Of a DNA stretch of 64,000 nucleotides, positions 34,678 to 59,254 are shown one piece after another; position 1 is the stretch's first letter, and each line of letters starts with the position of its first letter. Below the pieces are notes generated by a model. The model was given only the letters and a program-made list of their open reading frames with translations. It did no database searches and had not been told where the DNA came from. The stretch covers positions 2,269-66,268 of the forward strand of contig JAWXBZ010000105.1 of assembly GCA_034440375.1 (NCBI GenBank), given 5' to 3'. The position numbers were made by a program, and so were the translations under genes. This stretch comes from Candidatus Eiseniibacteriota bacterium (GTDB lineage Bacteria > Eisenbacteria > RBG-16-71-46 > JABDJR01 > JAWXBZ01).

Positions 34678-35313
34678 ATGTCCGTGAAAAGGATTGACGT
34701 CGGCGCAAAGACCGGGCACCCGGAAACGGGTGAGCTGCTGGATCAGCTTGAAGGACGGCTGGCTTTGGACCGACTCCGGGAAGTTGCGACGCACGTGCTG
34801 GCCTGCCGACGCTGCCAAAGGTCGATTGAGGAGCTGAAGCGCGTAACCAACTCGCTCGGCGCATCGACACTGGAGTCGCCCCCGGAGTGGCTGGCGAACT
34901 GGGCGGACGATCGGCCGCGGGATCAGCCGAAAAAGGTTCCGAAGGGTCTGATGCCAATCCTGAGGCTGGTCCTCGATTCATGGCGTCTCGAACCGCTGGG
35001 GGCTCGCGGGGTCGCCCCTTCCAGCCGCCGTCTCCTCTATCGGGCCGGCTCGGTCGATCTGGATATTGAACTAGACCTGGGACGCGCGGGCCGGACGGCC
35101 ACGGTTCGGGGCCAGATTCTTGATGCCACCGTGACCGGTGGGCGACAGTTCTCGGAAGGGCACGTTCGGTTACTCGCCGGCCGGCGGCTCGTGGTCAAGG
35201 TGCCGCTCGGCACCCGGGGAGACTTCCGGCTGAGCGACGTGCCCCGCCGCGTCTACCACCTGAATATCGCGGCGGCCGGATTCCGGGTTCGAGTCGATTC
35301 ATTCGAGATATGA
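34678..35313 (+). CDS. Putative zinc-binding (ZAS-type) anti-sigma factor, soluble
   Basis: H-x3-C-x2-C motif (HVLACRRCQ) near the N-terminus, immediately downstream of the ECF sigma gene. No evident TM helix. The stop overlaps the next gene's start (ATGA). Confidence 0.55.
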   Translation: MSVKRIDVGAKTGHPETGELLDQLEGRLALDRLREVATHVLACRRCQRSIEELKRVTNSLGASTLESPPEWLANWADDRPRDQPKKVPKGLMPILRLVLDSWRLEPLGARGVAPSSRRLLYRAGSVDLDIELDLGRAGRTATVRGQILDATVTGGRQFSEGHVRLLAGRRLVVKVPLGTRGDFRLSDVPRRVYHLNIAAAGFRVRVDSFEI

Positions 35314-38111: not shown

Positions 38112-38204
38112 TGCGCCGTGACGATTGGGCTGGCCACCGGCCGGGGGGGGCCTGTACTCTTTGATTCCCGCCAAGGACTCATGCCGCCGAAAGGGAATTC
38201 TGTC

Positions 38205-39620: not shown

Positions 39621-39707
39621 CCGATTGTGTATCCCGTGTCCACCGGACCGTACCTTGCCTCCATGCATCGCAATGAGGCGTATCCGTTCCGGAACGGTGA
39701 CCGAAAA

Positions 39708-40919
39708 ATGGCACGGCGAATTGCCGCCTACTCGCACGATACCGTCGGACTCGGGCACCTGCGCCGCACCCTGACCATCACCCGCCATCTCGGGGCACGG
39801 CGCCCCGACTTGAACTCGCTCATCATCTCCGGTTCCCCATTCGTCCAGGCGATGGGTTCCTATGATCGAATCGATTTCCTCAAACTCCCCGCGGCGAAGA
39901 AAATTCGGAACGGGCACTACGAAGCCCGGTACCTCGGCCTCGACTTTGATCACTTCAACCGGTTTCGATCAGGCGTCATCGACGAGGGGCTCCGGGCTTT
40001 CGAGCCCGATCTCCTGATCATTGACAAGACGCCGGGGGGGATGAACGGCGAATTGCTTCCCTGTTTGCGGCGCCTTCGGGAGACCGGCGCGCGGACGCGG
40101 GTGGTCCTTGGTCTGCGCGATATCCTGGACGAGGCGCCGAACCAGCGTGCCGAGTGGACGGCCACCGGCGACTGGCAGACGCTCGACGAACTCTATGATG
40201 CGATCTGGATCTACGGCTCGGCGGACGTTTTCAACCCGGTTACCGAGTACGGCTTCAGCGATACCATGGCCGCGCGCACGTCTTTTCTGGGCTACCTCCC
40301 AAAGTACAACGGAATTCGGCCCGTCGAGGCCATCCGGGCTGAACTTGACGCAAAGGATCAGCCGCTCCTGGTCTTGAGCCCCGGCGGCGGCGAGGACGGT
40401 TACGAACTTCTGTCACTCTTTCTCGAAGCGAGGGACGGGGGCTTCCTTCCGACCGGACACCTGCCGGTCCTGGTCACCGGACCAGGCATGCCGGAAGCGC
40501 GCGTGGCCGAACTCCGGCATCGCCTCGGCGCCAACGGCCGATTGCTGGAGTTCAGCGATCATTTCACGTCAATTCTGGCGGCCGCCGACCTGGTGATCAC
40601 CATGGGTGGCTACAACACGCTCACCGAAGCGCTCTGCCTTGGCAAGCGGGTGGTCTCGGTTCCCCGCGTGCGCCCGAGGCGCGAGCAGTGGATACGGGCA
40701 CAGCGATTCGCCGAGCGCGGGCTGCTGACAATGGTCGAGCCGGACGGTGCCTCCCCGGCCACACTCGGCGCCGCGATCCGTCATGAACTCGGCCGCGACG
40801 TGAGCACCGGATGCCTCCCGCTCGATTTCGGGGGCCTGGAACGGCTGGACGACGAATATGCCCGCCTCTTCGACAATGAGATGCCGGCCCTTCAAAGCGA
40901 GTCCGGAGCAACGCGATGA
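39708..40919 (+). CDS. GT-B glycosyltransferase, GT28/MGDG-synthase-like (Glyco_tran_28_C-type)
   Basis: N-terminus RIAAYSHDTVGLGHLRRTLTI and C-terminal ADLVITMGGYNTLTEALCLGKRVVSVPR motif. The ATG at 39708 is preferred over the one at 39627. Confidence 0.55.
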   Translation: MARRIAAYSHDTVGLGHLRRTLTITRHLGARRPDLNSLIISGSPFVQAMGSYDRIDFLKLPAAKKIRNGHYEARYLGLDFDHFNRFRSGVIDEGLRAFEPDLLIIDKTPGGMNGELLPCLRRLRETGARTRVVLGLRDILDEAPNQRAEWTATGDWQTLDELYDAIWIYGSADVFNPVTEYGFSDTMAARTSFLGYLPKYNGIRPVEAIRAELDAKDQPLLVLSPGGGEDGYELLSLFLEARDGGFLPTGHLPVLVTGPGMPEARVAELRHRLGANGRLLEFSDHFTSILAAADLVITMGGYNTLTEALCLGKRVVSVPRVRPRREQWIRAQRFAERGLLTMVEPDGASPATLGAAIRHELGRDVSTGCLPLDFGGLERLDDEYARLFDNEMPALQSESGATR

Positions 40920-42244
40920 CGACGCCCGCGACAACACACGCTCCGCTTTGCGTGGCCTACCTCGTCAAGACCTGGCCGCGCCTCTCGGAGACATTTGTCC
41001 TGAACGAGATTCTGGCGCTGGAGGCGCGCGGCGCCATCGTCACGATCCTGGCCCTGAAGCGCCCGGCGGAGCGTCGCTTCCACGAGAAACTGGCGCGTGT
41101 GCGCGGGGACGTGTTGTACGCGCCGGAGGTACGGCCGAATCAAGTCCTTTCCTTCCTCGCATCGCAGCACAAACACCTGGCCGGGGCGGAAGTGCTTCTA
41201 TCGCGGCACTTCTGGACGTCCCTGGATCAGGCGGACGATGAGGGCCTGGAGTCGCTGATTCCCGCGATCGCATTTCTGCCGGTGGTTGTCGAACGGCAAA
41301 TCGACCACCTTCATGCCCATTTCGCCACCTCGGCCGCCGCCACGGCCATGCGGCTGGCATCGCTCGCCGGAATCGGTTGGTCAATGACGGCCCACGCCAA
41401 GGATATTTTCCACCAATCGGTTTCAAGTGACCGCCTGCGCGAGAAGGTGGCGTCGTCACGCTTCACCGTGGCCGTGAGCGACTGGAGCGCCGACTTCCTG
41501 CGCGACGTCGTCGGTCACCCGGCCGCATCAAACGTGCGGCGGCTGTACAACGGTCTCGATCTGACTGAATTTCCGACGCCGCGGTTCGGGGGGGCCGGCA
41601 CGGAAACAGCGGCCTGCCTGCCGGAACTCCCGGTCACTCCGGGGCGGATTCTTTCCGTGGGTCGCCTCGTGCCGAAGAAAGGCTTCGGCACTCTGCTTCT
41701 GGCGGCGCGTCGACTCATCGATCAAGGCCACGACATTCACGTCGACCTCGTTGGTGACGGCGAACTGCGCGTCGAACTGGAGCGTCGCATCCACGAGCTC
41801 AACCTCGACGCGAGAGTCCACCTGCTTGGCGCGCAGTCCCACGATGCCGTCCGGCAGCTCATGCAATCGTCGACGCTGTTCGCGCTCCCGGCCGAAGTGG
41901 CGGAGGACGGCAATCGTGATGGATTACCCGTCGTGGTCGTGGAGGCCATGGCATCGGGACTTCCGGTCCTCTCAACGCCAGTGGTCGGCATCCCCGAGGC
42001 GGTCCTCGATGGGATCACCGGCCGCCTTGTCCCGGAAAGGGATCCGATCGCCTTGGCCGGCGCAATAGCCGAACTCCTCGCCGATCGCGCGGGTGCCGCG
42101 CGGCTGGCGGAGGCCGGCCGGCGACGCGTGGACGAGCACTTCGACGGCGCGCGTTCGGCGGCCACGCTTCACGAGTGGTTCCAGGGGGCCGTACGACTGG
42201 AGGCGGCGAAACCGAAATCGATGATGGAGGCGGTCGGTCGATGA
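40916..42244 (+). CDS. Glycosyltransferase family 4
   Basis: GRLVPKKGFGTLLLA...EDGNRDGLPVVVVEAMASGLPVLST (GT4 E-x7-E region). The start overlaps the preceding gene's stop. Confidence 0.7.
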   Translation: MTTPATTHAPLCVAYLVKTWPRLSETFVLNEILALEARGAIVTILALKRPAERRFHEKLARVRGDVLYAPEVRPNQVLSFLASQHKHLAGAEVLLSRHFWTSLDQADDEGLESLIPAIAFLPVVVERQIDHLHAHFATSAAATAMRLASLAGIGWSMTAHAKDIFHQSVSSDRLREKVASSRFTVAVSDWSADFLRDVVGHPAASNVRRLYNGLDLTEFPTPRFGGAGTETAACLPELPVTPGRILSVGRLVPKKGFGTLLLAARRLIDQGHDIHVDLVGDGELRVELERRIHELNLDARVHLLGAQSHDAVRQLMQSSTLFALPAEVAEDGNRDGLPVVVVEAMASGLPVLSTPVVGIPEAVLDGITGRLVPERDPIALAGAIAELLADRAGAARLAEAGRRRVDEHFDGARSAATLHEWFQGAVRLEAAKPKSMMEAVGR

Positions 42245-43410
42245 ACTGGCTCGTCCTCGCAAACGACTTCGGCGTCCCATGGCACGGCACCAAGGGGGCC
42301 TCGATTCACCTCCGATCGATGGCCGAAGCCCTGGCCACCGGCGTCGACTCCGTCGAGGTGGCGGTGCGGCGCCTCGGCCGGCCGACCGCCGGAAATCCTG
42401 GCCATGGGCGAGTCATTCTGACCGGGCTCGCAACCACGGAACCGCCGACCAATCCGGCGTTCGATCCCGATCGGATGAACGCGGAATTGCTTGCGTGGAT
42501 CCTGGAGCGGCATCGCCACTCTCCGTTCGATGCCATCTACGAGCGCTATGCCCTTTGGACGGTGGCGGGACTCGATGCCGCCCGAAAGCTCGGCATTCCC
42601 CATCTACTTGAAGTCAACGCGCCGCTGGTGGACGAGGCCTCCCGCTGGCGGAACCTGGAACTCACGGTGACCGCCCGGGCGGCGGAACATCGCCTGGCCA
42701 TGGACGGTGATCATCTTCTGGCGGTGTCGTCACCGATCGCACGACATCTGCTCCGACTTGGCGCCAATCCCGACCGAATTCATGTTGAAGGCAACGGCGT
42801 GGCAGATGCGTTCCTCCGCGTGGAACGGCGCCACGAAGCCGGTACCTCTCCTTTCGTGGTGGGATTCGCCGGCAGTTTGAAACCATGGCACGGACTGTCG
42901 ACGCTGGTTTCGGCATTCGATCGACTCGGCGGCGCCGCCTCGGGTTGGCGGCTCCGCATCGTCGGCGAGGGTCCCATGGCAGAATGGCTGCGCGCGGCTG
43001 CAGAGACGCGTGAGGGGGTCGTCCTCACCGGCCCAATGCCGCACGAGTCGATTCCCGGCGAACTGGCCCGAATGGATGCCGGCGCCGCGCTCTACGAAGA
43101 GGTCGGCGAGGGGTACTTCTCGCCGCTCAAGGTGGCCGAGTACCAGGCGGCAGGGCTCCCCGTGGTGGCCTCGGGCGGCGCCGGGGTCCGTGAGATGATC
43201 ACGCATGGCAACGACGGCCTCCTGGTCCAGGAAGGCGATGTGGCCGGGGCCGCCACGGCCTTCGAACGGATTCGCTTCGAATCAAACCTTTCGGCCACGC
43301 TCGCGGCGGCCGGCCGATGCCGCGCGGCGGCCCGCACCTGGTCTGCCATCGCCGCACGTTGTCGCACACTGGCCTCGGGTCAGTCGCCCTGCGCAGAGAT
43401 CGGTCGATGA
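42241..43410 (+). CDS. Glycosyltransferase family 4
   Basis: FVVGFAGSLKPWHGL...SPLKVAEYQAAGLPVVAS motifs; ATGA overlap with the preceding gene. Confidence 0.65.
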   Translation: MNWLVLANDFGVPWHGTKGASIHLRSMAEALATGVDSVEVAVRRLGRPTAGNPGHGRVILTGLATTEPPTNPAFDPDRMNAELLAWILERHRHSPFDAIYERYALWTVAGLDAARKLGIPHLLEVNAPLVDEASRWRNLELTVTARAAEHRLAMDGDHLLAVSSPIARHLLRLGANPDRIHVEGNGVADAFLRVERRHEAGTSPFVVGFAGSLKPWHGLSTLVSAFDRLGGAASGWRLRIVGEGPMAEWLRAAAETREGVVLTGPMPHESIPGELARMDAGAALYEEVGEGYFSPLKVAEYQAAGLPVVASGGAGVREMITHGNDGLLVQEGDVAGAATAFERIRFESNLSATLAAAGRCRAAARTWSAIAARCRTLASGQSPCAEIGR

Positions 43411-46025
43411 CGACCAGAGCGGCCCTGTCGAAGCCTTCCAGGACGCTCGTTGAAGACCGGCTGTCACACCTCGAGGAAGTCCTTGATGCGGGAGCCGTCG
43501 GGCGTGCCCTCTTCGATCACCTCGGAGGAGCCGGGTTCAAACCCAATGGGGCCCGCGTCACCTATCTGAATCACAAACCGGCGGTCGGGGCCCTGATCGG
43601 GTATCAATTCGACTTGATCGGGCGCGATGAACCGCTGCGGGCGGCCGGCCGGCTCGTTCCGGCGGCGCGGCTTGGCGCGGTACGGATTGCACTCGAAAGC
43701 TGGGCCCTTCGCCACCCGGGGGCACAGGTCATCCACCTTCATCCGTGGCCACTGGTGGTCACACTCTATCCGCATGACCGACACCTTCCGGGACTTTCCG
43801 TGCTGGGCCAGAAGGGAAAGTTCAAGCGCCATGTGGACGCGATGGGGATCGGCGCCGGCTTTGAAGGGGGCCGCGTCAGCGGCGGGCGGACGACACGCCG
43901 GCTTCTCACCTGGAAACCCGGGCGCCGGGCCGTCCTCTGCGCCGACCTCGTCTTCGTGGACAGTACGGGTCGGCACCTGGGCGAACGGGCCGTCATCGTC
44001 AAAGCCTACGCGGACAGCACCGGGCGCGAAACACGCGAGTGGATGACGGCGCTTCAGGCCATCGGCGACCTGCCGAAGCCGCTCAGGCTGGCCATTCCGC
44101 TGGCCTGGGACGATTCCCGAAAGATCCTCTATCAGGAACGACTGGCCGGCGAGCCGCTCCTGGAATCGACAACAGCTGTGGAGGCGGCGCGAACCGCGGG
44201 GCGATGCCTTGGCGGGCTTCATGGGATTTCGCCCATGAGGGGTGCACCCGGATCGACAAGACAAGTCCGGTCGGCACCCAGCGTTCTCGGTCAGGTGCGC
44301 GCCGTCTCCTGTCATTTTTCGGAGATCCTTCGGGAGATTGGAGCAGGAGCTGGCGGCCGACTCGGTCAACAACTGGACGGACTGGTAACGCGCCTCGATC
44401 AAACGATCGGCGACACCGAATGCGGTTCCCCTGACGATCTCAGAGTCATCCACGGCGATTTCCACGCCGGACAGATTCTGATCGAGAAGGATCGAATCGG
44501 CCTCATCGATCTGGACGAGATGCGGGCCGGGGATCCCCGCCTCGATCTGGCCACGTTTCGGGCCCATCTCACGTCCCAGGCGCTGGCGGGGCTGATGCCG
44601 ATGGAGCGGGCGACAGCCATCGACAACGCCTTCCGGGACGGGTACCGCGACGGGTGCGGCACTCTTCGGGGTCAGGGCTGGTTCGATGCCGCCGGGTTGG
44701 CGCTCCTGACGCTGGAACCGTATCGTCGGCGCGATCCGAACTGGGAGGCGACAACGGCAAGGATCATCGAATCAGCCGAGGCACTCGTGGCGCCGACCCC
44801 GGCTCGTCGACCCCGGGCGCCGCACGATGCCGAATCAATGGTCGAGCGGCTTCTGGATCGAGACGGGGCCCTTTCCCTCCTGAACGGTCTCCTCGAGGCT
44901 CGTGGTTCCACTACCCGGCTTCTCGAGGTTCGAAAAGGGGGGCTCAAGGTCAAGAATGAACGGCTGGAAGGAACCTTTGACGTTGTCGTCAAGACGGCCG
45001 CGACTGGAAATGGACACCGGCCGATCACCCATCTCGGCATCGCATTGCCACACGACCATCAAGGTTCGGACGATCAGTTGAGCCTCCATCTCTCGCCCGA
45101 GGATCCGGCCCTGCCGATGTCATGGATCGAGTCGCCCCAAACACGGTTCCGCACGGCGACTCTTCTCGGTCCTGGCCGCCCGGAGTTCCGGCTCGTGCGC
45201 CATCGACACGGCTCTCGCGCGGCCTGGCAGGCGGTTGCGCCGGGCCCGGGCAGGCCGGCCGTTGCCCTCAAGCTGCGACGCCGCTCTCCGCGTTGGTTCG
45301 TAACCGGGGCGGATGAACTTGTTCCGTGGACAGTCCGGCTGCCGTCGCCGCGCAGAACCTTTGCCACGGCACAGGAGTGGGTCGGCGGCCCTTCGCTGCA
45401 CGAACGGATCATGACCGTCGGGGCCACCTCGTCGGAACTGGGCCGGGTGGGTCAGCTCGTCGGTCGTTTTCACCGCGAGGCGCGACTCGTCCCCGCCGGC
45501 CGAACGGGCGTGGTGAACACGAGGACGCTCGGCAACGAGCTCGAATCGCTTGCACGTCAACTGGCCACGATGCCGGTGGCGCCCGATGAGTTGATCAACG
45601 GCGTCGCCTCCCGGCTGGATCAGGCTCGTAAACGGTTACCAGGAGCGGTCCGATCCATCGCCGCCCTGCATGGCGATCTACACGATCGGCAGGTGTTACT
45701 CGAGGGGGATCGACCGGTTGTCATCGACTGCGACATGGCCTCTCCCGGGGAGGCGGAACTGGACGTTGGCAATTTTCTGGCTCACCTCGTGCTCCGGGCC
45801 GTGCAGCTCGGGAAGGATCCGACTCACATTTCCAGCGGGGCCGGTGTCTTTCGCCGGGCCGCGGAGGATGCCTCGCTCCGCCCGCTGGACAGGGACAGAC
45901 TCATCGCACATGTCGCCTGCTCCCTCCTTCGCCTGGTGCTTCTCTATCGACTCAGGATCGGGGGACGCCGTTTCGGCCCGGCGCTCCTGGCGGCGCACGA
46001 CGTAGCCGGAGATTGGGTGACATGA
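43407..46025 (+). CDS. Tandem double phosphotransferase (two APH/choline-kinase-like protein kinase-fold domains)
   Basis: Two Brenner-type motifs: VIHGDFHAGQILIEKDRIGLIDLDEMRAGDPRLDLA and ALHGDLHDRQVLLEGDRPVVIDCDMASPGEAELDVGNFLAHL. ATGA overlap with the upstream GT4 gene. Confidence 0.6.
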   Translation: MTTRAALSKPSRTLVEDRLSHLEEVLDAGAVGRALFDHLGGAGFKPNGARVTYLNHKPAVGALIGYQFDLIGRDEPLRAAGRLVPAARLGAVRIALESWALRHPGAQVIHLHPWPLVVTLYPHDRHLPGLSVLGQKGKFKRHVDAMGIGAGFEGGRVSGGRTTRRLLTWKPGRRAVLCADLVFVDSTGRHLGERAVIVKAYADSTGRETREWMTALQAIGDLPKPLRLAIPLAWDDSRKILYQERLAGEPLLESTTAVEAARTAGRCLGGLHGISPMRGAPGSTRQVRSAPSVLGQVRAVSCHFSEILREIGAGAGGRLGQQLDGLVTRLDQTIGDTECGSPDDLRVIHGDFHAGQILIEKDRIGLIDLDEMRAGDPRLDLATFRAHLTSQALAGLMPMERATAIDNAFRDGYRDGCGTLRGQGWFDAAGLALLTLEPYRRRDPNWEATTARIIESAEALVAPTPARRPRAPHDAESMVERLLDRDGALSLLNGLLEARGSTTRLLEVRKGGLKVKNERLEGTFDVVVKTAATGNGHRPITHLGIALPHDHQGSDDQLSLHLSPEDPALPMSWIESPQTRFRTATLLGPGRPEFRLVRHRHGSRAAWQAVAPGPGRPAVALKLRRRSPRWFVTGADELVPWTVRLPSPRRTFATAQEWVGGPSLHERIMTVGATSSELGRVGQLVGRFHREARLVPAGRTGVVNTRTLGNELESLARQLATMPVAPDELINGVASRLDQARKRLPGAVRSIAALHGDLHDRQVLLEGDRPVVIDCDMASPGEAELDVGNFLAHLVLRAVQLGKDPTHISSGAGVFRRAAEDASLRPLDRDRLIAHVACSLLRLVLLYRLRIGGRRFGPALLAAHDVAGDWVT

Positions 46026-47797
46026 CCGGCCGGCGCGCGCGCACAATCATGCCCATCATCGCCCGGACCACCGGCTTCCTCTACCTGGTTGGTGGAGCGT
46101 GCGTCTCGATCGCATCCGGGCCGGCTCCTTCGTTGAGCGACCTCCGGCCGGGTGACTGGGTCGAAGTCAGTGTGACACCCGCTGCCTCTGGCGGCTGGCA
46201 GGGCAACGAGGTCGATCTGAAGGATCACAGCGGAATAGCCGGAGGGTCACTGACCGGCACACTCCAAACGATGGCGGACGGCAGACGGTCGATCCTGGGT
46301 CACCCCATGGCCATTTCGGCCAGTACAGCGATCAAGGACACCGCGGGCCTGAACATCGCCGCGAGCGCCCTGCTCGACGGGCTCATCGTCGAAGCGCAAA
46401 TCCAGTCGGAAGGCGACGGATGGAGCGCGCTGAAGCTCAAAGTAAGGCCCGACGATGTCGAATGGGAAATAGAGGGGTCCCTGGAGGCCGTGGTTCCAGG
46501 TGATCCGACGGTGCTGCGTGTCCTCGGCTTCGACATTCGCACCACACCCGACACGATTGTCCGGCGTCGTGCCCGGAAGGCGACTCAAATCCCGGGCGTC
46601 GATGACGACGATGTCCGACCATCCCGCGCGATTGCCGTGGGGCCGTACCAGGTCGGAATGGTGGCTGGCCTGGAATTCGACCCGCGCCGCAACTATGACA
46701 TCAACAGCGCCCGCGACCGCAATCTCTCGCTGCTCGACATGTCGGCCCTGATCGAGGCGACCGCCCGTTCGGGTGACCGTTGGCGGTCCTTCATCAAAGG
46801 GGGTTACCGCCGACAGGAGGTGTTGCTCGACGAGCGCGGTACCCGAGCCGGCAGCCAGCGCTGGCAACTCGAGGAGGCCTGGATTGCCCGATCCGGGTTC
46901 CTCCACCCGGACCTGGCAATCCAGGTTGGGCGGCAGGACTTCGACGAGGCCCACGAGTGGCTCTACGACGAAAACCTGGATGCGATTCGACTCCACTGGC
47001 TTCCCGTCGGAGCTCACGCCACCGCGTCTCTGAGCACGCGACTCGATGACAATGACCCGACTTCCCACGATCTCTGGAACGGGTTGGTCACACTTGACTG
47101 GACCATGAATCCTGACCGGGCCTTCGGCCTGGTGGTGCTATCGAGGTACCCCATCGCCGGCGCGCCATTGCCCACGCGGACGTGGATTGGGGCCCGGGCC
47201 CTCCGGATTCGAATTGGCCGATTCCGGGGATGGGGCGATGTCTCCGTCCTGCGAGGCCATGCGGGTGTCTCGAAGATCCGCGCCCAGGCCGCTCATCTGT
47301 CGACCAGCTTTCTCCTGTCCCGGGCGGGCCGGTTGACCCTCAACGCGGCCTGGGCACGCGGTTCCGGGGACAACGATCCGGCCGACGGGATCGACGGCAC
47401 GTATCGCCAGACGGGCTTTCATGACAACAATGATCGATTCGGCGGTGTGACCGGCTTTCGCTACTACGGGGAGATGCTGAGGCCGGAGCTGTCAAATCTT
47501 TCCGTTGTCACACTCGGCTTCGGGAGTCGCCCAACGCCGAGCAGCTCCATCGACCTCGTCTATCACCACTACCGACAGGTTCATGCGGCTCCCTACCTGT
47601 CCGAGTCGAACCTCGATGCGAATCCTCTTGGCCTCAACCCCGATCTCGGACACGAAATCGACCTGATCATCGGTATCCGGGAGTTTTCGAATATGCGCCT
47701 GGAGGGGGTGATAGCTGCCTTCTTCGCGGGCCCTGCCTTTCTTGTCGACTCGGAGACGGCCGTCAACAGCCGCCTCCAGGTCGATGTGAGTTTCTGA
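46013..47797 (+). CDS. Putative outer-membrane beta-barrel protein
   Basis: N-terminal signal-like segment, amphipathic beta pattern, and a C-terminal ...LQVDVSF ending in Phe, which is an OMP signature. No identifiable family. Confidence 0.4.
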   Translation: MGDMTGRRARTIMPIIARTTGFLYLVGGACVSIASGPAPSLSDLRPGDWVEVSVTPAASGGWQGNEVDLKDHSGIAGGSLTGTLQTMADGRRSILGHPMAISASTAIKDTAGLNIAASALLDGLIVEAQIQSEGDGWSALKLKVRPDDVEWEIEGSLEAVVPGDPTVLRVLGFDIRTTPDTIVRRRARKATQIPGVDDDDVRPSRAIAVGPYQVGMVAGLEFDPRRNYDINSARDRNLSLLDMSALIEATARSGDRWRSFIKGGYRRQEVLLDERGTRAGSQRWQLEEAWIARSGFLHPDLAIQVGRQDFDEAHEWLYDENLDAIRLHWLPVGAHATASLSTRLDDNDPTSHDLWNGLVTLDWTMNPDRAFGLVVLSRYPIAGAPLPTRTWIGARALRIRIGRFRGWGDVSVLRGHAGVSKIRAQAAHLSTSFLLSRAGRLTLNAAWARGSGDNDPADGIDGTYRQTGFHDNNDRFGGVTGFRYYGEMLRPELSNLSVVTLGFGSRPTPSSSIDLVYHHYRQVHAAPYLSESNLDANPLGLNPDLGHEIDLIIGIREFSNMRLEGVIAAFFAGPAFLVDSETAVNSRLQVDVSF

Positions 47798-47815
47798 AGT
47801 TGTCCACACATCAAG

Positions 47816-49576
47816 ATGAGGATTCCGACCATGCCCGCTGAAATGACTCGAATCGGACGCCGCACGCCAGCGGCCCTTCTGTGCTTCGGAACGGCTCTGA
47901 TTTTGTCCGTCGGTCCGGCCTCGGCCTGGACGATTTCCGGGCATGTCACGAACTCCAACGGTCAGAACGCCGTGGATGTCGACCTCGACTTTGAGGATCG
48001 AAGCACCGGAACGATCCTCGACACACCGGGCGACAGGACGGACGCATTCGGCAACTACAGCGTGACCGTTCCAACCGGTGACTACCGGATCTACTTCAAT
48101 GCCACGCCGGCCTCACACCTGTTCGACGGCAGTGTGGACGCGACAATCACCTCAGATAGGACGATTGACATGGTCTTGAATGTTGGGACGTACGTCAGTG
48201 GCGACGTGGTCGACATGGATGGCTTCGGCCTCGCCTTCGTCGACCTGAATTTCTACGATGTTTCCAGTGGCGCCAACCTCGGGTACGCGGGCGACGACTC
48301 CGACGCTTTTGGAAACTTCGCGGTGCTGGTCGATCCGGGCCTGACCTTCGACATCCTCTTCCGGCCGGCGATCGGCGACCCGCATTGCGCGCGCCAGATC
48401 GAGAACGTCGCGGTCGGCACGTCGGACATCGTTCTGCCCCCGGTGGTCCTGGAAAGCGGCGCGTTTGTCTCAGGAAGCGTCCACCGCACGGACAACGGCA
48501 ACCCGGTGGTCGATGCCGATATCGACGCCACGAATACTCTGACTGGTGAACGTCGGACCCGGCTCGGCTTAGACAACACGGACGGATCAGGAGCCTTTCA
48601 GGTCGTGCTGCCCGCCGGCACCTGGGACATCACAGCCACTCCCCCGGCCGGGCAGGGGCTGGCGGCGGAAATCGTTCCCGCTGTGGTCGTCAGCGGCTCC
48701 GTCTCGACCGGCACGATCCAGCTGCCCGTCGGCTACAGCATCACGGGCACCGTCCTTGGCCCGGGGAACGCGCCGCAGTCGGATGCCAACGTCGATCCTG
48801 TGCATGTCGTGCGCCGTATCGAGATGCCGACGTCAGGCGACCACACGACCCCCTCCGGGCAGTACGCCATGATCCTGGCGGCGGCGACGTACGATTTCCT
48901 GGTCTGGCCGCCCCCGGGAGCGCCGCTGGCGGTCGGTGTTCTGCGCAATCGAAGCGTGACCGGGGCTGCCACCCTGCCGACCGTCAACTTGTCCGGCGGT
49001 GTCGTCATCCAGGGCACCGCGAAGACCCCCTCGGGTCTGCCGGTCCGCGATGCCGACATCAACGCCGAGCAGCTGGCCGATGCGTTCGTTTACCCCACCC
49101 GTGACGACAATACCAACGGGTCCGGGGTCTACGCGATCCGTGTGCCGGCGGGATCGTATCGACTCATCGCCCGTCCCCCCGTCGGGAGCGGGCTGGTGGC
49201 CGATACGGTTGTCGTGGCTGCGACATCAAACCAGACGGTCCACTTCACGTTCGGCGTGACGACGCCCAGTGGCGTCGGGGACAGCCGCCCTCCGTCCCGC
49301 CTGGCGCTGGCCACGGAACACGATATCGCCGCCGGAGCCGTGGCCTTCCGGTTCTCACTGCCACCGGGCCAGGCCATGCCGACAACCCTCCGGATCTACT
49401 CCGCTGATGGCCGCCTGCGCCGGACACTGATCGACGAAGTTATGGACGGCGGATCCCACCTCACAAGGTGGGACGGGCGGGACGGCTCCGGTCGTCGCCT
49501 CCCGTCGGGAATGTACTTCGTCCGACTGGCATCGGCTTCCGACGCAGTTAACGCCCGGGCTGTCCTGGTGGAATGA
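47816..49576 (+). CDS. Secreted protein with repeated CarboxypepD_reg-like (transthyretin-fold) domains and a C-terminal T9SS type-A/FlgD-Ig-like domain
   Basis: Signal peptide, then four or more repeats of the form GxV.D..G.P...A.VD........T.DGNY.V.VP.G.Y.I. C-terminal tail TLRIYSADGRLRRTL...SGMYFVRL. Confidence 0.6.
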   Translation: MRIPTMPAEMTRIGRRTPAALLCFGTALILSVGPASAWTISGHVTNSNGQNAVDVDLDFEDRSTGTILDTPGDRTDAFGNYSVTVPTGDYRIYFNATPASHLFDGSVDATITSDRTIDMVLNVGTYVSGDVVDMDGFGLAFVDLNFYDVSSGANLGYAGDDSDAFGNFAVLVDPGLTFDILFRPAIGDPHCARQIENVAVGTSDIVLPPVVLESGAFVSGSVHRTDNGNPVVDADIDATNTLTGERRTRLGLDNTDGSGAFQVVLPAGTWDITATPPAGQGLAAEIVPAVVVSGSVSTGTIQLPVGYSITGTVLGPGNAPQSDANVDPVHVVRRIEMPTSGDHTTPSGQYAMILAAATYDFLVWPPPGAPLAVGVLRNRSVTGAATLPTVNLSGGVVIQGTAKTPSGLPVRDADINAEQLADAFVYPTRDDNTNGSGVYAIRVPAGSYRLIARPPVGSGLVADTVVVAATSNQTVHFTFGVTTPSGVGDSRPPSRLALATEHDIAAGAVAFRFSLPPGQAMPTTLRIYSADGRLRRTLIDEVMDGGSHLTRWDGRDGSGRRLPSGMYFVRLASASDAVNARAVLVE

Positions 49577-51312
49577 TGTCGAGACCCCGGCACTACCTCT
49601 TTGAACTGTTTCTGGCAGCCATGATCGTGGCCGGCGGTAACTCGTTTGCCCTGGCCGGTGACCCGGAGGCGCCGAGGCTTCGTGGCACGGTCGTGGACCA
49701 CAACGGCGCCCCGATCTACAAGGCGGATCTGGACTTTTACGAACCGGGTACCCGCAACCGTGTCGACCCGACTCCGCCGGGCCGCGATCCGGACTCGGAC
49801 AAGACCGACCTGGACGGGCAATACTCGATAAAGGTGGCTCCTGCCACCTACGACATCCGATACCAACCACCGTTGGGCCGTTCCGACCTGGCCACGGTCG
49901 TCGTCGAGGGTGTCCGCATCACGGCAGACACGACACTCGACGTGAGGCTCCCGCGAGGCCATGTCGTGACCGGCCGCATCACCACCCGTGGCGGTGAGGC
50001 GGTCGAAGGGGTCGACATCGACGTCCTCGACCCGATTACCGGACGGCATCTGCCAACGCCCGGCGACAAGACCGGCACGGGCGGTGCCTACCGGGTGATC
50101 ATCGTTCCAGGCACCTACACTTTCACCTTTACACCGCCGTCCGGAGCCCGCCTGGTCGCCGTCGTCCTGACGCGCGTGGCGATCACGGCCGCCACGCGGC
50201 TCGATGCCGCCCTTCCACCCGGGTATTTTCTGGTTGGGCGACTCCTTGGACCGGACGGCGCGCCGGTCACCGGCGCTGACCTCGACGTCGATGACTCGAC
50301 AAGCGGGGAGCGGATCCGGACACCGGATGACAGCACCGATCCGAACGGCCGCTTCCGAATCGTCGTTCCCGCCGGCCCGATCGATCTGATCCTCAATCCG
50401 CCGCCGGGCCGGGAAATGGCGGCAAACATCGTGAGAAGTATCATTCTGACCGGAGACCGTGATCTCGGGGATCTCAGCTTCGAGACTGGAGCAAACCTAT
50501 CGGCGATCATACTCGGCCCCGACGGCCTGCCCCTTTCGGGCGCGCGCGCGCTGTTCCACGAGGAAAGCACCGGCCTCCGTTACCCGGCCCCGGGCTCCAC
50601 CAGCGGTTTGGATGGACGACTGAGCGTCCGCCTGCCTCTCGGCTCGTGGATCGTCCGCGTCGCGCCACCGATTGGAGCGGCGTTCGACACTCTCGACGCC
50701 GGTACGCTGCGGCTCGACCGACCCGGGGAAGCCATCTGGCAGTTCGACGCCGGCGAGTTCCGCCGGCTGACCATCGGCCTCCTCAACGCCTTGACTCGGC
50801 TCGAAGGAACAGTTGAGCTCTGGCGATCGCCACGGTCGGGCAGACCACTCGTGGCCCTGTCGGTGGGCGGTGACCGACCCGCCGAACTGACGCTGTCTCC
50901 CGGTCGATACGATCTGGTGGCCCGTGCCGGGTCCGCCTACCTTCCGGATTCAATAACGATAGTCGATCTATCAATTTCGGCTGACACCACGCTGACGTTC
51001 GACTTTCTGGCTCGGACGCCCCCACCCACGCCGCAAACCGCGGTCGCTCTCGGCCGATCAACACCAAGCCCATTCGCGAGTACCACGCGCATGACGGCGA
51101 TGGCGACATCCGGGACCCGGGCAACCCTCTTCGTTTTCGACGTATCCGGGCGGCTGGTTCGTGAATTCCCTCTCGAATTCGCCACCACAAGTCAGGATGT
51201 CGAATGGAACGGCCGCGATATGAGTGGCGCACCGGTCCCGGCCGGTGTTTACTTCCTTCGACTGTTCACTCCCACCTCCGTGGCCATCGGCCGCGTGGTC
51301 AAACGTCCATGA
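49573..51312 (+). CDS. Paralog of the preceding gene: CarboxypepD_reg-repeat secreted protein with the same C-terminal domain
   Basis: Same repeat architecture (GTVVDHNGAPIYKADLDFYE..., TGRITTRGGEAVEGVDIDVLD...). C-terminal tail TLFVFDVSGRLVREF...AGVYFLRL. Its start overlaps the upstream gene's stop. Confidence 0.6.
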   Translation: MMSRPRHYLFELFLAAMIVAGGNSFALAGDPEAPRLRGTVVDHNGAPIYKADLDFYEPGTRNRVDPTPPGRDPDSDKTDLDGQYSIKVAPATYDIRYQPPLGRSDLATVVVEGVRITADTTLDVRLPRGHVVTGRITTRGGEAVEGVDIDVLDPITGRHLPTPGDKTGTGGAYRVIIVPGTYTFTFTPPSGARLVAVVLTRVAITAATRLDAALPPGYFLVGRLLGPDGAPVTGADLDVDDSTSGERIRTPDDSTDPNGRFRIVVPAGPIDLILNPPPGREMAANIVRSIILTGDRDLGDLSFETGANLSAIILGPDGLPLSGARALFHEESTGLRYPAPGSTSGLDGRLSVRLPLGSWIVRVAPPIGAAFDTLDAGTLRLDRPGEAIWQFDAGEFRRLTIGLLNALTRLEGTVELWRSPRSGRPLVALSVGGDRPAELTLSPGRYDLVARAGSAYLPDSITIVDLSISADTTLTFDFLARTPPPTPQTAVALGRSTPSPFASTTRMTAMATSGTRATLFVFDVSGRLVREFPLEFATTSQDVEWNGRDMSGAPVPAGVYFLRLFTPTSVAIGRVVKRP

Positions 51313-53051
51313 AGTCGCCACCGGGATTGCCCCTCACCACCCTCATCGACACGATTCGCCCACCAGCCCGCCGGGCCTGGAAAATTATCCTGGCCGGCAT
51401 GGTAGCCATGCTCGGTGTCTCGGCCATGAAGCTTTTGATCCCCTGGCCAATGAAGCTGATCGTCGATCAGGTCCTCATTCCCACCGCCGGCCGATCCCGG
51501 CTGGATTGGCTTCCGGCCGACGCAACTTCGTCCCTCACGGTGCTCTGTCTCGGGCTCATCGCCATCTACCTCGTCAAGGGGTGGCTCTTCTCACGGCAGG
51601 AAATCGCCATGGCCCGGGCGGGGCGGGTGATGATCCTGGCTCTTCGCTCCCGGCTATTCGGGAAAATTCTCGAGCTGCCTCCCGCTTTCCATTACCGGCG
51701 AAAATCCGGTGACCTTCTCACTCGATTGATGACCGATGTGAACCAGATCAAGGATCTGGTTTTCGGCGTCGGGTTCAACGCGATCGGTGACGTGGTCACC
51801 GTCATCGGGATGCTGGCCATCCTGACCTGGTATGACCCGATCCTTGCCCTGGTGGCGATGGTCGCCGGACCGATCGTCCTGATTCCCTCGCGAGTCTTCT
51901 CGCGCAGGATCCGTGGCGTGGCGCGCGAACAAAGAAAGCGGCAGGGCGAGTTGGCCGGATCCGTCAACGAAGTCCTCCGCTCCCTGCGCGTCGTGCAAAC
52001 CTTCGATCGGGCGGATGCCCACCAGAGGGCCTTCGATCAAAAAGATGCGGGGCAATTGGATGCCGATGTTCGGATGACGCGTCTTCAGACCAATCTCTTC
52101 CGGGTCGTTGAGATGGGTGTTGCCGTCGGATCGGCGCTGATCCTCTGGCTCGGCGCCCGTCGGGTACTGGCCGGGCAGCTGAGCCCGGGTGACCTGATCG
52201 TCTTCACGCAATACGTCCGCACCATGTACCGGCCGTTTCAGGACATGGCCAAGCTGGCCGGCCGGTGGAACAAGGCATTGGCCTCGGCCGAACGAATCGC
52301 CGACATCCTGGTCACGCCCGACACCCTCCCCGACCCGGTTCGGCCAACGCCTCTCGGGCGCGCCCGCGGTGATGTTGAATTCCAGAACGTCACGTTCGCC
52401 TACGAGGGTCGCACGGCCGTCCTGAACAACCTCAATTTCACCGTGGCGGCGGGTGAATCCGTGGCTCTCGTCGGTCCCAGCGGCATTGGCAAATCAACGA
52501 TGTCGAGCCTGATCCTTCGCCTTCATGATCCCCAGGCAGGCTCGGTACGACTCGATGGCGTTGACGTCCGCCACTACCTCAAGGCGGATCTTCGACGCCA
52601 GGTGGCCGTGGTCTTCCAGGAGCCCTGGCTCTTTGGAGTCAGCGTCCGGGACAACATCGCGTACGGGCGCGAGGGAGCAACTGAAACCGAAATCGAGGCT
52701 GCCGCCCGTGCCGCGCGTGCCCACGACTTCATCCTTGACCTCCCGGAAGGATATGACTCGGTGCTGGGAGAACATGGCGCCACATTGTCCGCCGGGCAGC
52801 GACAGCGGCTGGCCATCGCGCGGGCCCTGCTCCGGGATGCGCCGATCCTGATCCTCGACGAGCCGATGACCGGACTCGACGAGGGAAGCCGGCGGGAGGT
52901 TGCCGATGCGCTTGGCACACTGCGTCGCGGGCGGACGACGATCCTGATCACGCACGATCTGGAGGACCTCGACGGCATCGACCGGATCCTCCGCCTTGAC
53001 GGGGCGAACGGCCTCCACGAAACGGAAAGCTACGCTTTCAACCGCTCGTAA
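51309..53051 (+). CDS. ABC transporter, fused permease/ATP-binding exporter (MsbA-like)
   Basis: Six-TM N-terminal domain; Walker A GPSGIGKST, signature LSAGQRQRLAIARAL, Walker B ILILDEP. ATGA overlap with the preceding exoprotein gene. Confidence 0.8.
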   Translation: MKSPPGLPLTTLIDTIRPPARRAWKIILAGMVAMLGVSAMKLLIPWPMKLIVDQVLIPTAGRSRLDWLPADATSSLTVLCLGLIAIYLVKGWLFSRQEIAMARAGRVMILALRSRLFGKILELPPAFHYRRKSGDLLTRLMTDVNQIKDLVFGVGFNAIGDVVTVIGMLAILTWYDPILALVAMVAGPIVLIPSRVFSRRIRGVAREQRKRQGELAGSVNEVLRSLRVVQTFDRADAHQRAFDQKDAGQLDADVRMTRLQTNLFRVVEMGVAVGSALILWLGARRVLAGQLSPGDLIVFTQYVRTMYRPFQDMAKLAGRWNKALASAERIADILVTPDTLPDPVRPTPLGRARGDVEFQNVTFAYEGRTAVLNNLNFTVAAGESVALVGPSGIGKSTMSSLILRLHDPQAGSVRLDGVDVRHYLKADLRRQVAVVFQEPWLFGVSVRDNIAYGREGATETEIEAAARAARAHDFILDLPEGYDSVLGEHGATLSAGQRQRLAIARALLRDAPILILDEPMTGLDEGSRREVADALGTLRRGRTTILITHDLEDLDGIDRILRLDGANGLHETESYAFNRS

Positions 53052-53563: not shown

Positions 53564-53587
53564 CCTTGTCCTCCCCAGGTTGGTTCA

Positions 53588-59184: not shown

Positions 59185-59204
59185 CACTTCAGAGTTCCAG
59201 CATC

Positions 59205-59243: not shown

Positions 59244-59254
59244 GGCCTGCGGCA

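What the first reader, a model, noticed from the sequence alone, without database searches (positions are those of the whole stretch)
43407..46025. 870-aa protein with two complete APH/choline-kinase-like phosphotransferase domains in tandem
Both halves carry the HGD...N...D (Brenner) catalytic motif of the protein-kinase-like fold (VIHGDFHAGQILIEKDRIGLIDLDE and ALHGDLHDRQVLLEGDRPVVIDCD). The duplicated kinase is embedded between glycosyltransferases and an OM barrel gene and is translationally coupled on both sides. It may be a kinase for a sugar, lipid or surface protein, analogous to Kdo, heptose or CotH-type kinases. One domain could be a pseudokinase, but both retain the catalytic Asp.
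Basis: partly seen in the sequence, partly recalled or inferred. Interest (0 to 1): 0.5.

Follow-up and report, generated by a model that had tools for sequence, protein, structure and literature searches.

The report
Paired sugar-type kinases in glycan-export operon
The 872-residue protein is a real end-to-end fusion of two intact small-molecule (APH-type) kinases, and it belongs to a large, uncharacterised family that in more than ten bacterial phyla sits in the same gene cassette with three sugar-adding enzymes and a membrane exporter, which points to an undescribed pathway for a phosphorylated surface sugar compound.

Summary
ORF 43407-46025 encodes 872 aa, not 870. Each half passes Pfam APH on its own, folds as a whole bilobal kinase, and keeps the beta3 Lys, the HGDxHxxQ catalytic loop and the DxD metal loop.

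The protein is not a singleton. A profile search finds 4,599 cluster representatives at E<1e-30, and the best 150 all match along essentially the whole two-module profile. In 55 of 57 genome loci with enough flank, the kinases follow a MurG-like glycosyltransferase, two GT4 glycosyltransferases and an MsbA-like ABC exporter. Many diderm loci add an AlgE-like outer-membrane barrel.

The N-type and C-type modules are distinct paralogues. They are fused in 35 loci, separate adjacent genes in 16, and present as three or more modules in about 10. Fusions to the ABC exporter, a GT4 and a sulfotransferase also occur.

The best inference is that the pair phosphorylates the glycosyltransferase product in the cytoplasm, at two sites or in two steps. 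This would make an anionic glycoconjugate that is then exported. The substrate is unknown, and I found no paper on the family or the cassette. The kinase fold is known; the paired family and its cassette look undescribed.

The parts
43407..46025 (+). Two-module APH-fold kinase gene (872 aa plus stop)
   Evidence: Translation. Pfam APH hits in both halves. Identical deposited protein P0001.
43407..44795 (+). N-type module, aa 1-463. It has an N-terminal cap (about aa 17-120: three long strands plus helices) and a kinase core.
   Evidence: AF2 confidence (pLDDT) is high over aa 17-463. All single-module relatives of 380-500 aa align to this module, cap included.
44451..44474 (+). N-module catalytic loop H349-G-D351-F-H353-A-G-Q356
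   Evidence: H349, G350 and D351 are invariant and Q356 is at least 90% conserved in 36 tandem proteins. An ungapped match to GlcN kinase 296-320 puts D351, H353 and Q356 on D300, H302 and Q305 (PMC6520443).
44508..44516 (+). N-module metal-binding D368-L-D370 loop (the DFG/DFD equivalent)
   Evidence: D368 is invariant and D370 is at least 90% conserved. D368 aligns to D317 of GlcN kinase.
44796..45149 (+). Linker, aa 464-581. It is probably a degenerate cap of the second module.
   Evidence: pLDDT is below 50. The window's C half aligns to the free-standing C-type gene of L010 with residue 559 on L010-C residue 111, so that gene's N-terminus projects to about aa 449. The DPALP motif at about aa 564-568 repeats the HDRHLP motif at about aa 123-128 of the N module.
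45150..46022 (+). C-type module kinase core, aa 582-872
   Evidence: Pfam APH scores 38.9 bits on the C half alone. AF2 plus Foldseek match choline kinases and APHs. hhalign to the N-module profile gives E 1.4e-31.
45669..45692 (+). C-module catalytic loop H755-G-D757-L-H759-D-R-Q762
   Evidence: H755 and D757 are at least 90% conserved. Most orthologues read HRDFYxDQ; the window has the HGDLHD[KR]Q subtype.
45726..45734 (+). C-module metal-binding D774-C-D776 loop
   Evidence: D774 is invariant and D776 is at least 90% conserved.
39627..40919 (+). MurG-like GT-B glycosyltransferase, first gene of the cassette
   Evidence: Pfam Glyco_tran_28_C. A profile of 24 orthologues has MurG as best solved relative (E 3e-10), then YjiC and UGTs. 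Present in 57 of 57 loci with enough flank.
40916..42244 (+). GT4 glycosyltransferase a
   Evidence: Pfam Glycos_transf_1 and Glyco_transf_4. Nearest solved relatives are PimB', sucrose-phosphate synthase, BshA and MshA. Its start makes an ATGA overlap with the upstream gene.
42241..43410 (+). GT4 glycosyltransferase b. The likely start is ATG 42241; the ORF opens at GTG 42175.
   Evidence: Pfam. In-frame ATG 42241 makes an ATGA overlap with the GT4a stop.
46022..47797 (+). AlgE-like outer-membrane beta-barrel. The likely start is ATG 46022; the ORF opens at TTG 46013.
   Evidence: Pfam Alginate_exp scores 65 bits. PDB AlgE matches at E 8e-8. An ATGA overlap joins it to the kinase stop. It follows the kinases in 19 of 66 loci with enough downstream sequence.
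47816..49576 (+). Secreted CarboxypepD_reg-repeat protein with a FlgD_ig C-terminal domain (CPDa)
   Evidence: Pfam. Homologues follow the barrel in 12 loci.
49573..51312 (+). Second CarboxypepD_reg / FlgD_ig protein (CPDb)
   Evidence: Pfam. ATGA overlap with CPDa.
51309..53051 (+). MsbA-like ABC exporter (transmembrane plus ATPase half-transporter). The likely start is ATG 51309; the ORF opens at 51204.
   Evidence: Pfam ABC_membrane and ABC_tran. NCBIfam MsbA_rel scores 420 bits and MsbA 404 bits, both below their cut-offs. ATGA overlap with CPDb. In other loci this gene lies directly upstream of the kinases.

Best explanation
The gene encodes a cytoplasmic fusion of two paralogous ATP-dependent kinases of the aminoglycoside/choline-kinase (APH) fold. 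I call them the N-type and the C-type module. Both have intact active sites of the sugar-kinase-like variant, with catalytic loop D-x-H-x2-Q and a DxD metal loop.

The gene is the kinase component of a conserved operon. A MurG-like glycosyltransferase and two GT4 glycosyltransferases would build a short glycan on a still unknown, probably lipid-linked, acceptor at the inner face of the membrane. The two kinase modules would then phosphorylate that product at two positions or in two successive steps. An MsbA-like ABC exporter would move the now anionic glycoconjugate across the inner membrane. In diderms such as this Eisenbacteria genome, an AlgE-like barrel with two CarboxypepD_reg proteins would take it through or onto the outer membrane.

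Shown: the two-kinase anatomy, conservation of the motifs, the family size, the cassette and the fusions. Inferred: the substrate, the order of steps and the purpose of the phosphate.
For: Anatomy:
- Each half passes Pfam APH on its own.
- The halves match profile-to-profile over 293 columns at E 1.4e-31, with K199 aligned to K622.

Conservation:
- In 36 tandem orthologues H349, G350, D351, D368, D380, D774 and D786 are invariant. Q356, D370, H755, D757 and D776 are at least 90% conserved.
- In 153 modules from 77 loci the H[GR]Dx4[QNH] motif is present in 147, with Q in 138.

Sugar-kinase-like loop:
- An ungapped match puts D351, H353, Q356 and D368 on D300, H302, Q305 and D317 of glucosamine kinase. 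There Q305 and D317 bind the two Mg ions and D300-x-H302 contacts the sugar (PMC6520443).

Family size:
- 4,599 representatives at E<1e-30; the best 150 all match along essentially the whole two-module profile (most 709-842 aa; a few are longer fusion proteins).

Context:
- 55 of 57 loci with at least 7 kb upstream carry the MurG-like GT, two GT4s and the ABC exporter on the same strand.
- The loci span Planctomycetota, Zixibacteria, Ignavibacteria, Gemmatimonadota, Acidobacteriota, Chloroflexota, Actinomycetota, Rhodobacteraceae and others.
- Gene calls with Pfam in L002 and L004 show the same order.

Fusions and associates that tie the kinases to glycan making, decoration and export:
- ABC exporter plus kinases (P0094, P0012), GT4 plus kinases (P0166), sulfotransferase plus kinases (P0073).
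- A sulfotransferase gene lies between the ABC and kinase genes in 7 loci. A periplasmic sulfatase-family protein occurs in 10 loci.
- The AlgE-like barrel is related to a pore known to pass a polyanionic polysaccharide.

Other points:
- The protein has no signal peptide or membrane segment (sequence), so it acts where ATP is available, before export.
- Six ATGA start/stop overlaps link the eight genes in the window.
Against: - No substrate is identified, and no family member is characterised in any source I could search.
- Macrolide kinases also depart from Asn at this position, using His.
- The beta3 Lys is Arg in about 30% of N modules. A conserved alphaC Glu could not be located.
- The cassette has no priming phosphoglycosyltransferase and no nucleotide-sugar genes, so the acceptor is open.
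- The AF2 confidence of the C module is only moderate, and the inter-module orientation is unknown (pTM 0.55).
Confidence: 0.5

Rival explanations
1. Donor activation. The modules are anomeric sugar-1-kinases, like maltokinase, NahK or AmgK. They would supply sugar-1-phosphates, directly or after nucleotidylation, to the neighbouring glycosyltransferases rather than decorating the finished product.
For: The catalytic loop is of the maltokinase/GlcN-kinase type (PMC6520443). NahK, MTR kinase and maltokinase are among the structural neighbours. A GT4-kinase fusion exists. GT4 includes enzymes that use sugar-1-phosphates (GlgM hit; family knowledge).
Against: No nucleotidyltransferase or GlgE-like transferase is conserved in the cassette. 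The fusions to the ABC exporter and to a sulfotransferase, and the anion-type barrel, fit product decoration better. NCBIfam maltokinase and GlcN-kinase scores lie far below their cut-offs.
Confidence: 0.15
2. Only one module is catalytic. The other would be a scaffold, a substrate-binding module or an allosteric (pseudo)kinase in an obligate heterodimer.
For: The two module types are distinct paralogues that co-occur in most loci, fused (35 loci) or as tightly coupled adjacent genes (16 loci). This suggests a complex. One homologue, P0009, has lost the HxD in its C module, reading FSTLDPRQ. The window's C-module Gly-loop motif is degenerate, RHGSRA against the consensus KPGRRA.
Against: The catalytic Asp, the Gln and the DxD loop are conserved in both module types across phyla: 147 of 153 modules keep the motif. 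The beta3 Lys is present in both halves of the window protein. Single-module variants of either type exist.
Confidence: 0.15
3. Protein or peptide kinase. The pair would phosphorylate a protein, for example the exporter, a glycosyltransferase or a secreted CarboxypepD_reg protein precursor, or a ribosomal peptide. It would regulate export or mature a peptide, as LxmK or TvaE do.
For: The best NCBIfam hit is the class V lanthionine synthetase kinase LxmK, at 56.8 bits against a cut-off of 315. LxmK, TvaE, and the corramycin, capreomycin and viomycin kinases are close structural or sequence neighbours. The ABC-kinase fusion could be regulatory.
Against: No precursor peptide, dehydratase or cyclase partner is conserved in the cassette. 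The constant partners are three glycosyltransferases. All of these scores are generic APH-family similarity.
Confidence: 0.1
4. Self-resistance or prodrug kinase of a glycoside natural-product cluster. This would resemble the antibiotic kinases that inactivate a compound before export.
For: The nearest solved sequences are antibiotic kinases: corramycin E 5e-13, capreomycin, viomycin and macrolide. The cassette has its own exporter.
Against: The same gene order is kept across more than ten phyla, with no scaffold genes such as PKS, NRPS, terpene or aminocyclitol enzymes. In diderms it comes with an envelope barrel and often with a two-component system. This looks like an envelope function rather than a secondary metabolite.
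Confidence: 0.07

Closest known systems
Maltokinase (Mak/Pep2) and actinobacterial glucosamine kinase (SjGlcNK), APH-fold sugar kinases
   Different: Here there are two modules per protein or per locus. The sugar-binding alpha12 motif of GlcN kinase was not detected. NCBIfam scores are far below the cut-offs: 25 against 375 bits and 24 against 550 bits. There is no TreS/GlgE context; instead there is a glycosyltransferase/ABC-export cassette. Homology of the cap was not shown by superposition.
LPS inner-core heptose kinases WaaP and WaaY with GT4 WaaG and the flippase MsbA (established knowledge of E. coli/Pseudomonas core assembly)
   Same: The logic matches. Two different protein-kinase-like enzymes each phosphorylate a sugar of a lipid-linked oligosaccharide. 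That oligosaccharide is built in the cytoplasm by GT-B glycosyltransferases and is then flipped by an MsbA-type ABC exporter. The phosphates give the surface its negative charge.
WbdD kinase/methyltransferase of the E. coli O9a O-antigen pathway (established knowledge)
   Same: A kinase-fold enzyme modifies the glycan in the cytoplasm, and the modification is coupled to export by an ABC transporter.
   Different: WbdD has a protein-kinase-type domain joined to a methyltransferase and a coiled coil, and it works with a Wzm/Wzt-type transporter. None of these is present here.
Antibiotic O-phosphotransferases: corramycin (8agy), capreomycin/viomycin (Cph/Vph), macrolide (Mph)
   Same: They are the best sequence matches among solved structures, at E 5e-13 to 1e-8. 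They share the xIDxDxxxxGDPxxDLA C-lobe signature.
   Different: They are single-domain proteins of about 290-360 aa, with Asn or His rather than Gln in the catalytic loop. They sit in resistance or biosynthetic clusters, not in this cassette.
AlgE / alginate export
   Same: The downstream barrel matches Pfam Alginate_exp and solved AlgE. AlgE is a pore for a polyanionic sugar polymer.
   Different: No alginate polymerase (Alg8/Alg44), AlgK or AlgX is present. The inner-membrane step here is an ABC exporter.

Membership tests
APH / choline-kinase phosphotransferase family (Pfam PF01636, protein-kinase-like fold) | Profile match above the curated threshold, for each half separately | tested here: met
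   N half 57.6 bits and C half 38.9 bits, against a cut-off of 23.2.
APH / choline-kinase phosphotransferase family (Pfam PF01636, protein-kinase-like fold) | Bilobal kinase fold: beta-rich N-lobe plus helical C-lobe | tested here: met
APH / choline-kinase phosphotransferase family (Pfam PF01636, protein-kinase-like fold) | Brenner catalytic loop H-x-D-x4-N | tested here: met
   HGD351FHAGQ356 and HGD757LHDRQ762. The His and Asp are present and conserved. The Asn is replaced by Gln, as in maltokinase and GlcN kinase.
APH / choline-kinase phosphotransferase family (Pfam PF01636, protein-kinase-like fold) | Metal-binding Asp of the DFG-equivalent loop | tested here: met
   D368 and D774 are invariant in 36 orthologues.
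APH / choline-kinase phosphotransferase family (Pfam PF01636, protein-kinase-like fold) | ATP-anchoring beta3 Lys paired with an alphaC Glu | tested here: inconclusive
   K199 and K622 align to each other and to the beta3 Lys of corramycin kinase. Among orthologues the N-module position is Lys or Arg. No conserved alphaC Glu could be assigned from the alignments.
Maltokinase / glucosamine kinase subgroup | Catalytic loop D-x-H-x2-Q and a DFD loop 12 residues later | tested here: met
   An ungapped match to SjGlcNK 296-320. Residue roles are taken from PMC6520443.
Maltokinase / glucosamine kinase subgroup | Curated family score (TIGR02457 TreS_Cterm; NF041273 GlcN_kinase) | tested here: not met
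   25.1 bits against 375 and 23.9 bits against 550.
Maltokinase / glucosamine kinase subgroup | Sugar-binding alpha12 motif Q-x2-RE-x2-YA-x3-LP-x-W, or E/Y/W in Mak | tested here: inconclusive
   The family has a conserved P-[FY]-R-x-R-x-P-x-W motif (R440, W446) in a C-terminal helix. It could not be aligned to the Mak/GlcNK motif by sequence, and no coordinates were available for superposition.
Maltokinase / glucosamine kinase subgroup | N-terminal cap subdomain | tested here: inconclusive
LPS kinases Kdo/WaaP/WaaY (PF06293, PF06176) | Profile match or closest fold | tested here: not met
CotH kinases (PF08757) and HipA | Profile match | tested here: not met
   Absent from the Pfam and NCBIfam results and from the fold-search lists.
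Known anti-phage defence systems (PADLOC) | Any model match for the kinase or the glycosyltransferases | tested here: not met
   No hit for the kinase, the GTs, the barrel or CPDa, the one CarboxypepD_reg protein scanned. There were only generic ATPase hits for the ABC protein.

The most novel reading that the evidence does not exclude
The cassette (MurG-like GT, two GT4s, MsbA-like exporter, paired N/C kinases; in diderms also an AlgE-like barrel; often a two-component system, a sulfotransferase or a sulfatase-family protein) would be an undescribed envelope pathway spread across more than ten phyla. It would make a doubly phosphorylated, or phospho-/sulfo-, glycolipid or oligosaccharide. The two kinase paralogues would form an obligate heteromer, each marking a different sugar. 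The anionic marks would serve as the export signal read by the ABC transporter and by the anion-type outer-membrane pore.
Probability: 0.3. Interest if true: 0.75.

Novelty: new variant of a known kind. Interest (0 to 1): 0.55.

Why it matters
The fold and chemistry are familiar. What is new is a kinase pair with thousands of relatives that is locked, from Arthrobacter to Planctomycetota to Eisenbacteria, to the same three glycosyltransferases and an MsbA-like exporter. That pattern indicates a widespread surface glycoconjugate whose structure and role are unknown.

It is directly testable, because culturable carriers exist: Celeribacter, Roseovarius, Roseobacter, Paracoccus, Granulosicoccus and Arthrobacter.

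If the phosphates prove to be the export or charge determinant, the system would be a compact, portable analogue of LPS-core phosphorylation. It would also supply a new set of regiospecific sugar kinases. At the least, the generic label 'phosphotransferase' on these genes could be replaced by a family and cassette definition.

Tried and rejected
1. Pseudokinase half. Rejected because the catalytic His, Asp, Gln and DxD residues are conserved in both module types.

2. Membership in the Kdo/WaaP, CotH or HipA families. There were no profile hits, and the fold match to WaaP is weak.

3. Defence system. PADLOC gave nothing for the kinase or the GTs.

4. Plasmid-borne or mobile trait. There was no tblastn hit in 72,556 plasmids.

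5. Deeper alignment for structure prediction. The second and third word-indexed homologue searches returned only the same roughly 20 proteins. The C module was therefore modelled from 9-10 sequences, and its confidence is only moderate.

6. Look-up of the source contig by exact protein. It was not on record.

7. Literature. Six full-text searches were run in all. The five aimed at the family or cassette found no paper on it. The sixth only retrieved the glucosamine-kinase paper. Their keywords were tandem or dual APH; APH with GT, MsbA and glycolipid; GT families with ABC; and MurG-like with MsbA-like.

8. A link to the upstream CHAT-TPR and subtilase genes. They are not conserved next to the cassette in other loci and were treated as a separate module.

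9. A promoter and terminator scan of the operon gave nothing above chance.


Full report
**1. Observation**

The + strand ORF from ATG 43407 to TGA 46023-46025 translates to 872 residues. A longer in-frame ATG lies at 43317, but the N-termini of homologues align to the 43407 start. The identical protein is deposited as 'MAG: phosphotransferase [Candidatus Eisenbacteria bacterium]' on a 130-kb contig.

ATG 43407 overlaps the stop of the upstream GT4 gene as ATGA. The kinase stop overlaps an in-frame ATG at 46022 of the downstream barrel gene, again as ATGA. The same 4-nt overlap occurs at 40916, 42241, 49573 and 51309. The eight genes from 39627 to 53051 therefore form one tightly coupled operon. 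A promoter and terminator scan added nothing above chance.

**2. Are both halves kinases?**

- Scanned separately, the N half (aa 1-470) scores 57.6 bits and the C half (aa 471-872) scores 38.9 bits against Pfam APH, whose cut-off is 23.2.
- BLASTP of one half against the other aligns the catalytic and metal loops at 36% identity over 73 residues, E 4e-10.
- A profile of single-module relatives plus the N half matches a profile of C halves with probability 99.9% and E 1.4e-31 over 293 columns. N residues 121-462 align to C-half residues 93-399. The match covers a shared P-x-D-P-x-L-P motif, the KPGRRA hairpin, the beta3 Lys (K199 to K622), the catalytic loop, the DxD loop and the C-terminal helices.
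- AlphaFold2 of the whole protein gives mean pLDDT 76. The N module (aa 17-463) is confident and the C module (aa 582-872) is moderate to high. Both show the same order of strands and helices. Residues 464-581 are disordered.
- The C half modelled alone (pLDDT 64) still matches whole choline kinase and APH chains over 330-380 columns at E about 1e-7.

**3. Conservation in orthologues**

In 36 two-module proteins from many phyla, H349, G350, D351, D368, D380, D774 and D786 are invariant. Q356, D370, H755, D757 and D776 are at least 90% conserved (blocks).

Across 153 modules in 77 genome loci, the motif H[GR]Dx4[QNH] is present in 147, with Gln in 138. The beta3 position is Lys in most proteins, and Lys or Arg in N modules. 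The window protein has Lys in both modules.

The second refutation test, that the motifs are not conserved, also fails. A pseudokinase half is unlikely, though one homologue (P0009) has lost the HxD of its C module.

**4. The kind of active site**

Both modules replace the Asn of the Brenner motif with Gln and carry His two residues after the catalytic Asp.

An ungapped match to glucosamine kinase residues 296-320 puts D351, H353, Q356 and D368 on D300, H302, Q305 and D317. In the glucosamine kinase structure, Q305 and D317 coordinate the two Mg ions, and D300-x-H302 is part of the sugar site shared with maltokinase (PMC6520443). NCBIfam gives weak hits to the maltokinase and GlcN-kinase models, far below their cut-offs.

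The most similar solved sequences are antibiotic kinases, led by corramycin kinase at E 5e-13. Macrolide kinases carry His at the Gln position. The sugar-kinase-like loop is therefore a lead, not a membership.

**5. A large family of paired paralogues**

A profile of ten tandem proteins, searched against 1.84 billion representatives, finds 29,055 proteins at E up to 0.001 and 4,599 at E up to 1e-30. The best 150 all match along essentially the whole two-module profile (most 709-842 aa; a few are longer fusion proteins), each at E<1e-167.

Longer members are fusions (P0012):
- ABC exporter plus two modules (P0094, 1,379 aa).
- ABC exporter plus one module (P0012).
- GT4 plus two modules (P0166).
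- Sulfotransferase plus two modules (P0073).
- Three APH modules (P0149).

Typing modules with HMMs in 77 genome loci gives the following architectures:
- N-C fused: 35 loci.
- N and C as separate adjacent genes: 16 loci, several with 4-nt overlaps.
- Three or more modules: about 10 loci, mostly Zixibacteria, Krumholzibacteriota and Arthrobacter.
- A single C-type module: 8 loci, in a Binatia/Myxococcales variant with a different gene order.
- A single N-type module: 5 loci.

All free-standing single-module proteins retrieved by the homologue search align to the N module, cap included.

The window's C half aligns to the free-standing C gene of locus L010 with window residue 559 on L010-C residue 111. 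That gene's N-terminus therefore projects to about window residue 449, close to the end of the N module. The window protein is thus an end-to-end fusion of two full-length genes. The disordered stretch 464-581 is the decayed cap of the second gene. Its C module belongs to the HGDLHD[KR][QN] subtype rather than the commoner HRDFYxDQ subtype.

**6. The conserved cassette**

A scan of one genome per GTDB species found 350 relatives, and the 80 best loci were fetched. tblastn of the window's proteins against them shows, on the kinase strand and directly upstream, a MurG-like GT, GT4a, GT4b and an ABC exporter. All four are present in 55 of 57 loci that have at least 7 kb upstream.

Independent gene calls with Pfam show the same order in a Chloroflexota-type locus and a metagenome locus. 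The lineages include Planctomycetota, Zixibacteria, Ignavibacteria, Gemmatimonadota, Acidobacteriota, Nitrospirota, Myxococcota, Chloroflexota, Actinomycetota (Arthrobacter), Rhodobacteraceae (Celeribacter, Roseovarius, Roseobacter, Paracoccus), Granulosicoccus and Deinococcota.

In 19 of 66 loci with enough downstream sequence, all diderms, an AlgE-like barrel follows the kinases. In 12 loci CarboxypepD_reg proteins follow as well. The window has the same set, with the ABC gene moved to the end.

Clustering all ORFs of the loci and scanning the recurrent extras found three further associates:
- A two-component system: the sensor in 22 loci, and OmpR-type or NtrC-type regulators in 16 and 10 loci. 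It was confirmed next to the cassette in Roseovarius and Arthrobacter.
- A periplasmic sulfatase-family protein with DUF5666, in 10 loci.
- A sulfotransferase between the ABC and kinase genes, in 7 loci.

No priming phosphoglycosyltransferase, nucleotide-sugar gene, polymerase, PKS/NRPS gene or precursor peptide recurs.

**7. The partners**

- The first GT hits only the Glyco_tran_28_C domain. A profile of 24 orthologues has MurG as its best solved relative (E 3e-10), then YjiC and other UDP-glycosyltransferases, with a faint hit to a processive diacylglycerol glucosyltransferase. These enzymes glycosylate lipid-linked or hydrophobic acceptors.
- GT4a resembles PimB', sucrose-phosphate synthase, BshA, MshA and PglA-type enzymes.
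- The ABC protein is a TMD-NBD half-transporter closest to MsbA_rel and MsbA, at 420 and 404 bits, both below their cut-offs. Glucan exporters, HepA and PglK are also listed.
- The barrel matches Pfam Alginate_exp at 65 bits and solved AlgE at E 8e-8.

**8. Mechanism**

*Shown:* a cytoplasmic protein with no signal peptide or membrane segment; two intact kinase sites; constant genetic coupling to three GTs and an exporter; and fusions to each kind of partner.

*Inferred:* the GTs assemble a short glycan on a lipid or other hydrophobic acceptor at the inner face of the membrane. The N and C kinases add phosphate at two positions or in two steps. In some lineages a sulfotransferase adds sulfate. 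The MsbA-like exporter flips or exports the anionic product. In diderms the AlgE-like pore and the CarboxypepD_reg proteins pass or hold it at the outer membrane.

This resembles LPS inner-core assembly, in which WaaG acts first, WaaP and WaaY phosphorylate, and MsbA flips. It also resembles WbdD-marked O-antigen export. Both comparisons rest on my knowledge of those systems, and the enzymes there are of different families.

I put about 0.5 on product decoration before export. The rivals are:
- Anomeric sugar-1-kinases that feed the GTs (0.15).
- One catalytic module plus one scaffold module (0.15).
- A protein or peptide kinase (0.1).
- A self-resistance kinase of a glycoside natural product (0.07).

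**9. Novelty and verdict**

The fold and chemistry are known. No curated model names the family: no NCBIfam model reaches its cut-off, and Pfam gives only the generic APH family. PADLOC has nothing and the plasmid collection has nothing. Six full-text searches were run in all: the five aimed at the family or cassette found no paper on it, and the sixth only retrieved the glucosamine-kinase paper. The searchable library lacks most subscription journals, so a prior description cannot be excluded.

I rate the finding a new variant of a known kind, with interest 0.55. It is ordinary as a fold. It is notable as the signature enzyme of a widespread, apparently undescribed glycoconjugate export cassette that can be tested in culturable bacteria.

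Noticed in passing
window 35310-39548 (+): A CHAT-domain protein with TPR repeats (933 aa) is followed 7 nt later by a mycosin-like S8 subtilase (476 aa), directly upstream of the cassette. The pair is not conserved next to the cassette in other loci, so it looks like a separate protease/caspase-like module.
   Followed up: partly
window 21069-27062 (+): A second, similar pairing lies here. A 1,135-aa AAA/TPR/BTAD (STAND-like) protein is followed by an 857-aa S8 subtilase with a C-terminal FlgD_ig domain. It echoes the CHAT-TPR plus subtilase pair downstream.
   Followed up: no
window 24489-31237 and 47816-51312 (+): At least four large secreted proteins end in a FlgD_ig / Por_Secre_tail-like domain: the S8 protease, an LTD+MAM protein of 1,127 aa, and the two CarboxypepD_reg proteins. 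This suggests type IX secretion-style C-terminal sorting domains in this Eisenbacteria genome.
   Followed up: no
window 31310-34042 (-): A phosphate-selective porin (Porin_O_P) and a DUF4956 protein lie on the opposite strand upstream of the operon. Any link to phosphate supply for the kinases is pure speculation.
   Followed up: no
window 53135-55234 (+): The RecQ helicase has an extra N-terminal extension of about 185 residues. The RecQ models match only from residue 186.
   Followed up: no
window 56870-60873: Three paralogous NHL / teneurin-NHL beta-propeller proteins of about 380 aa, two on the + strand and one on the - strand.
   Followed up: no
L007, L008, L027, L030, L038 (Zixibacteria / Krumholzibacteriota); L056, L072, L073, L081 (Arthrobacter): These loci carry three kinase modules as separate adjacent genes instead of two. 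L060 (Thermoleophilaceae) has five modules. The number of kinase paralogues varies from 1 to 5 while the number of glycosyltransferases stays at three.
   Followed up: partly
L026, L029, L034, L043, L045, L077 (Binatia, Myxococcales, other Proteobacteria): This is a variant cassette with the order ABC-GT4a-GT4b-kinase-GT28. It has a single C-type kinase (HRDFYDKQ) and a further GT4 a few kb downstream.
   Followed up: no
L004 12455-13306; L085 1103-2260: A cis-prenyltransferase (UPPS-like) gene lies just downstream of the cassette in L004. A WecA/MraY-type Glycos_transf_4 gene lies near it in L085. These are isolated hints that the acceptor could be a polyprenyl phosphate, but they do not recur across loci.
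   Followed up: partly
L001 3950-13139: In one metagenome contig the tandem kinase is followed by a complete type VI secretion gene set: TssA, VipA/B, Hcp, TssE/F/G and ClpV. This is probably coincidental adjacency.
   Followed up: no
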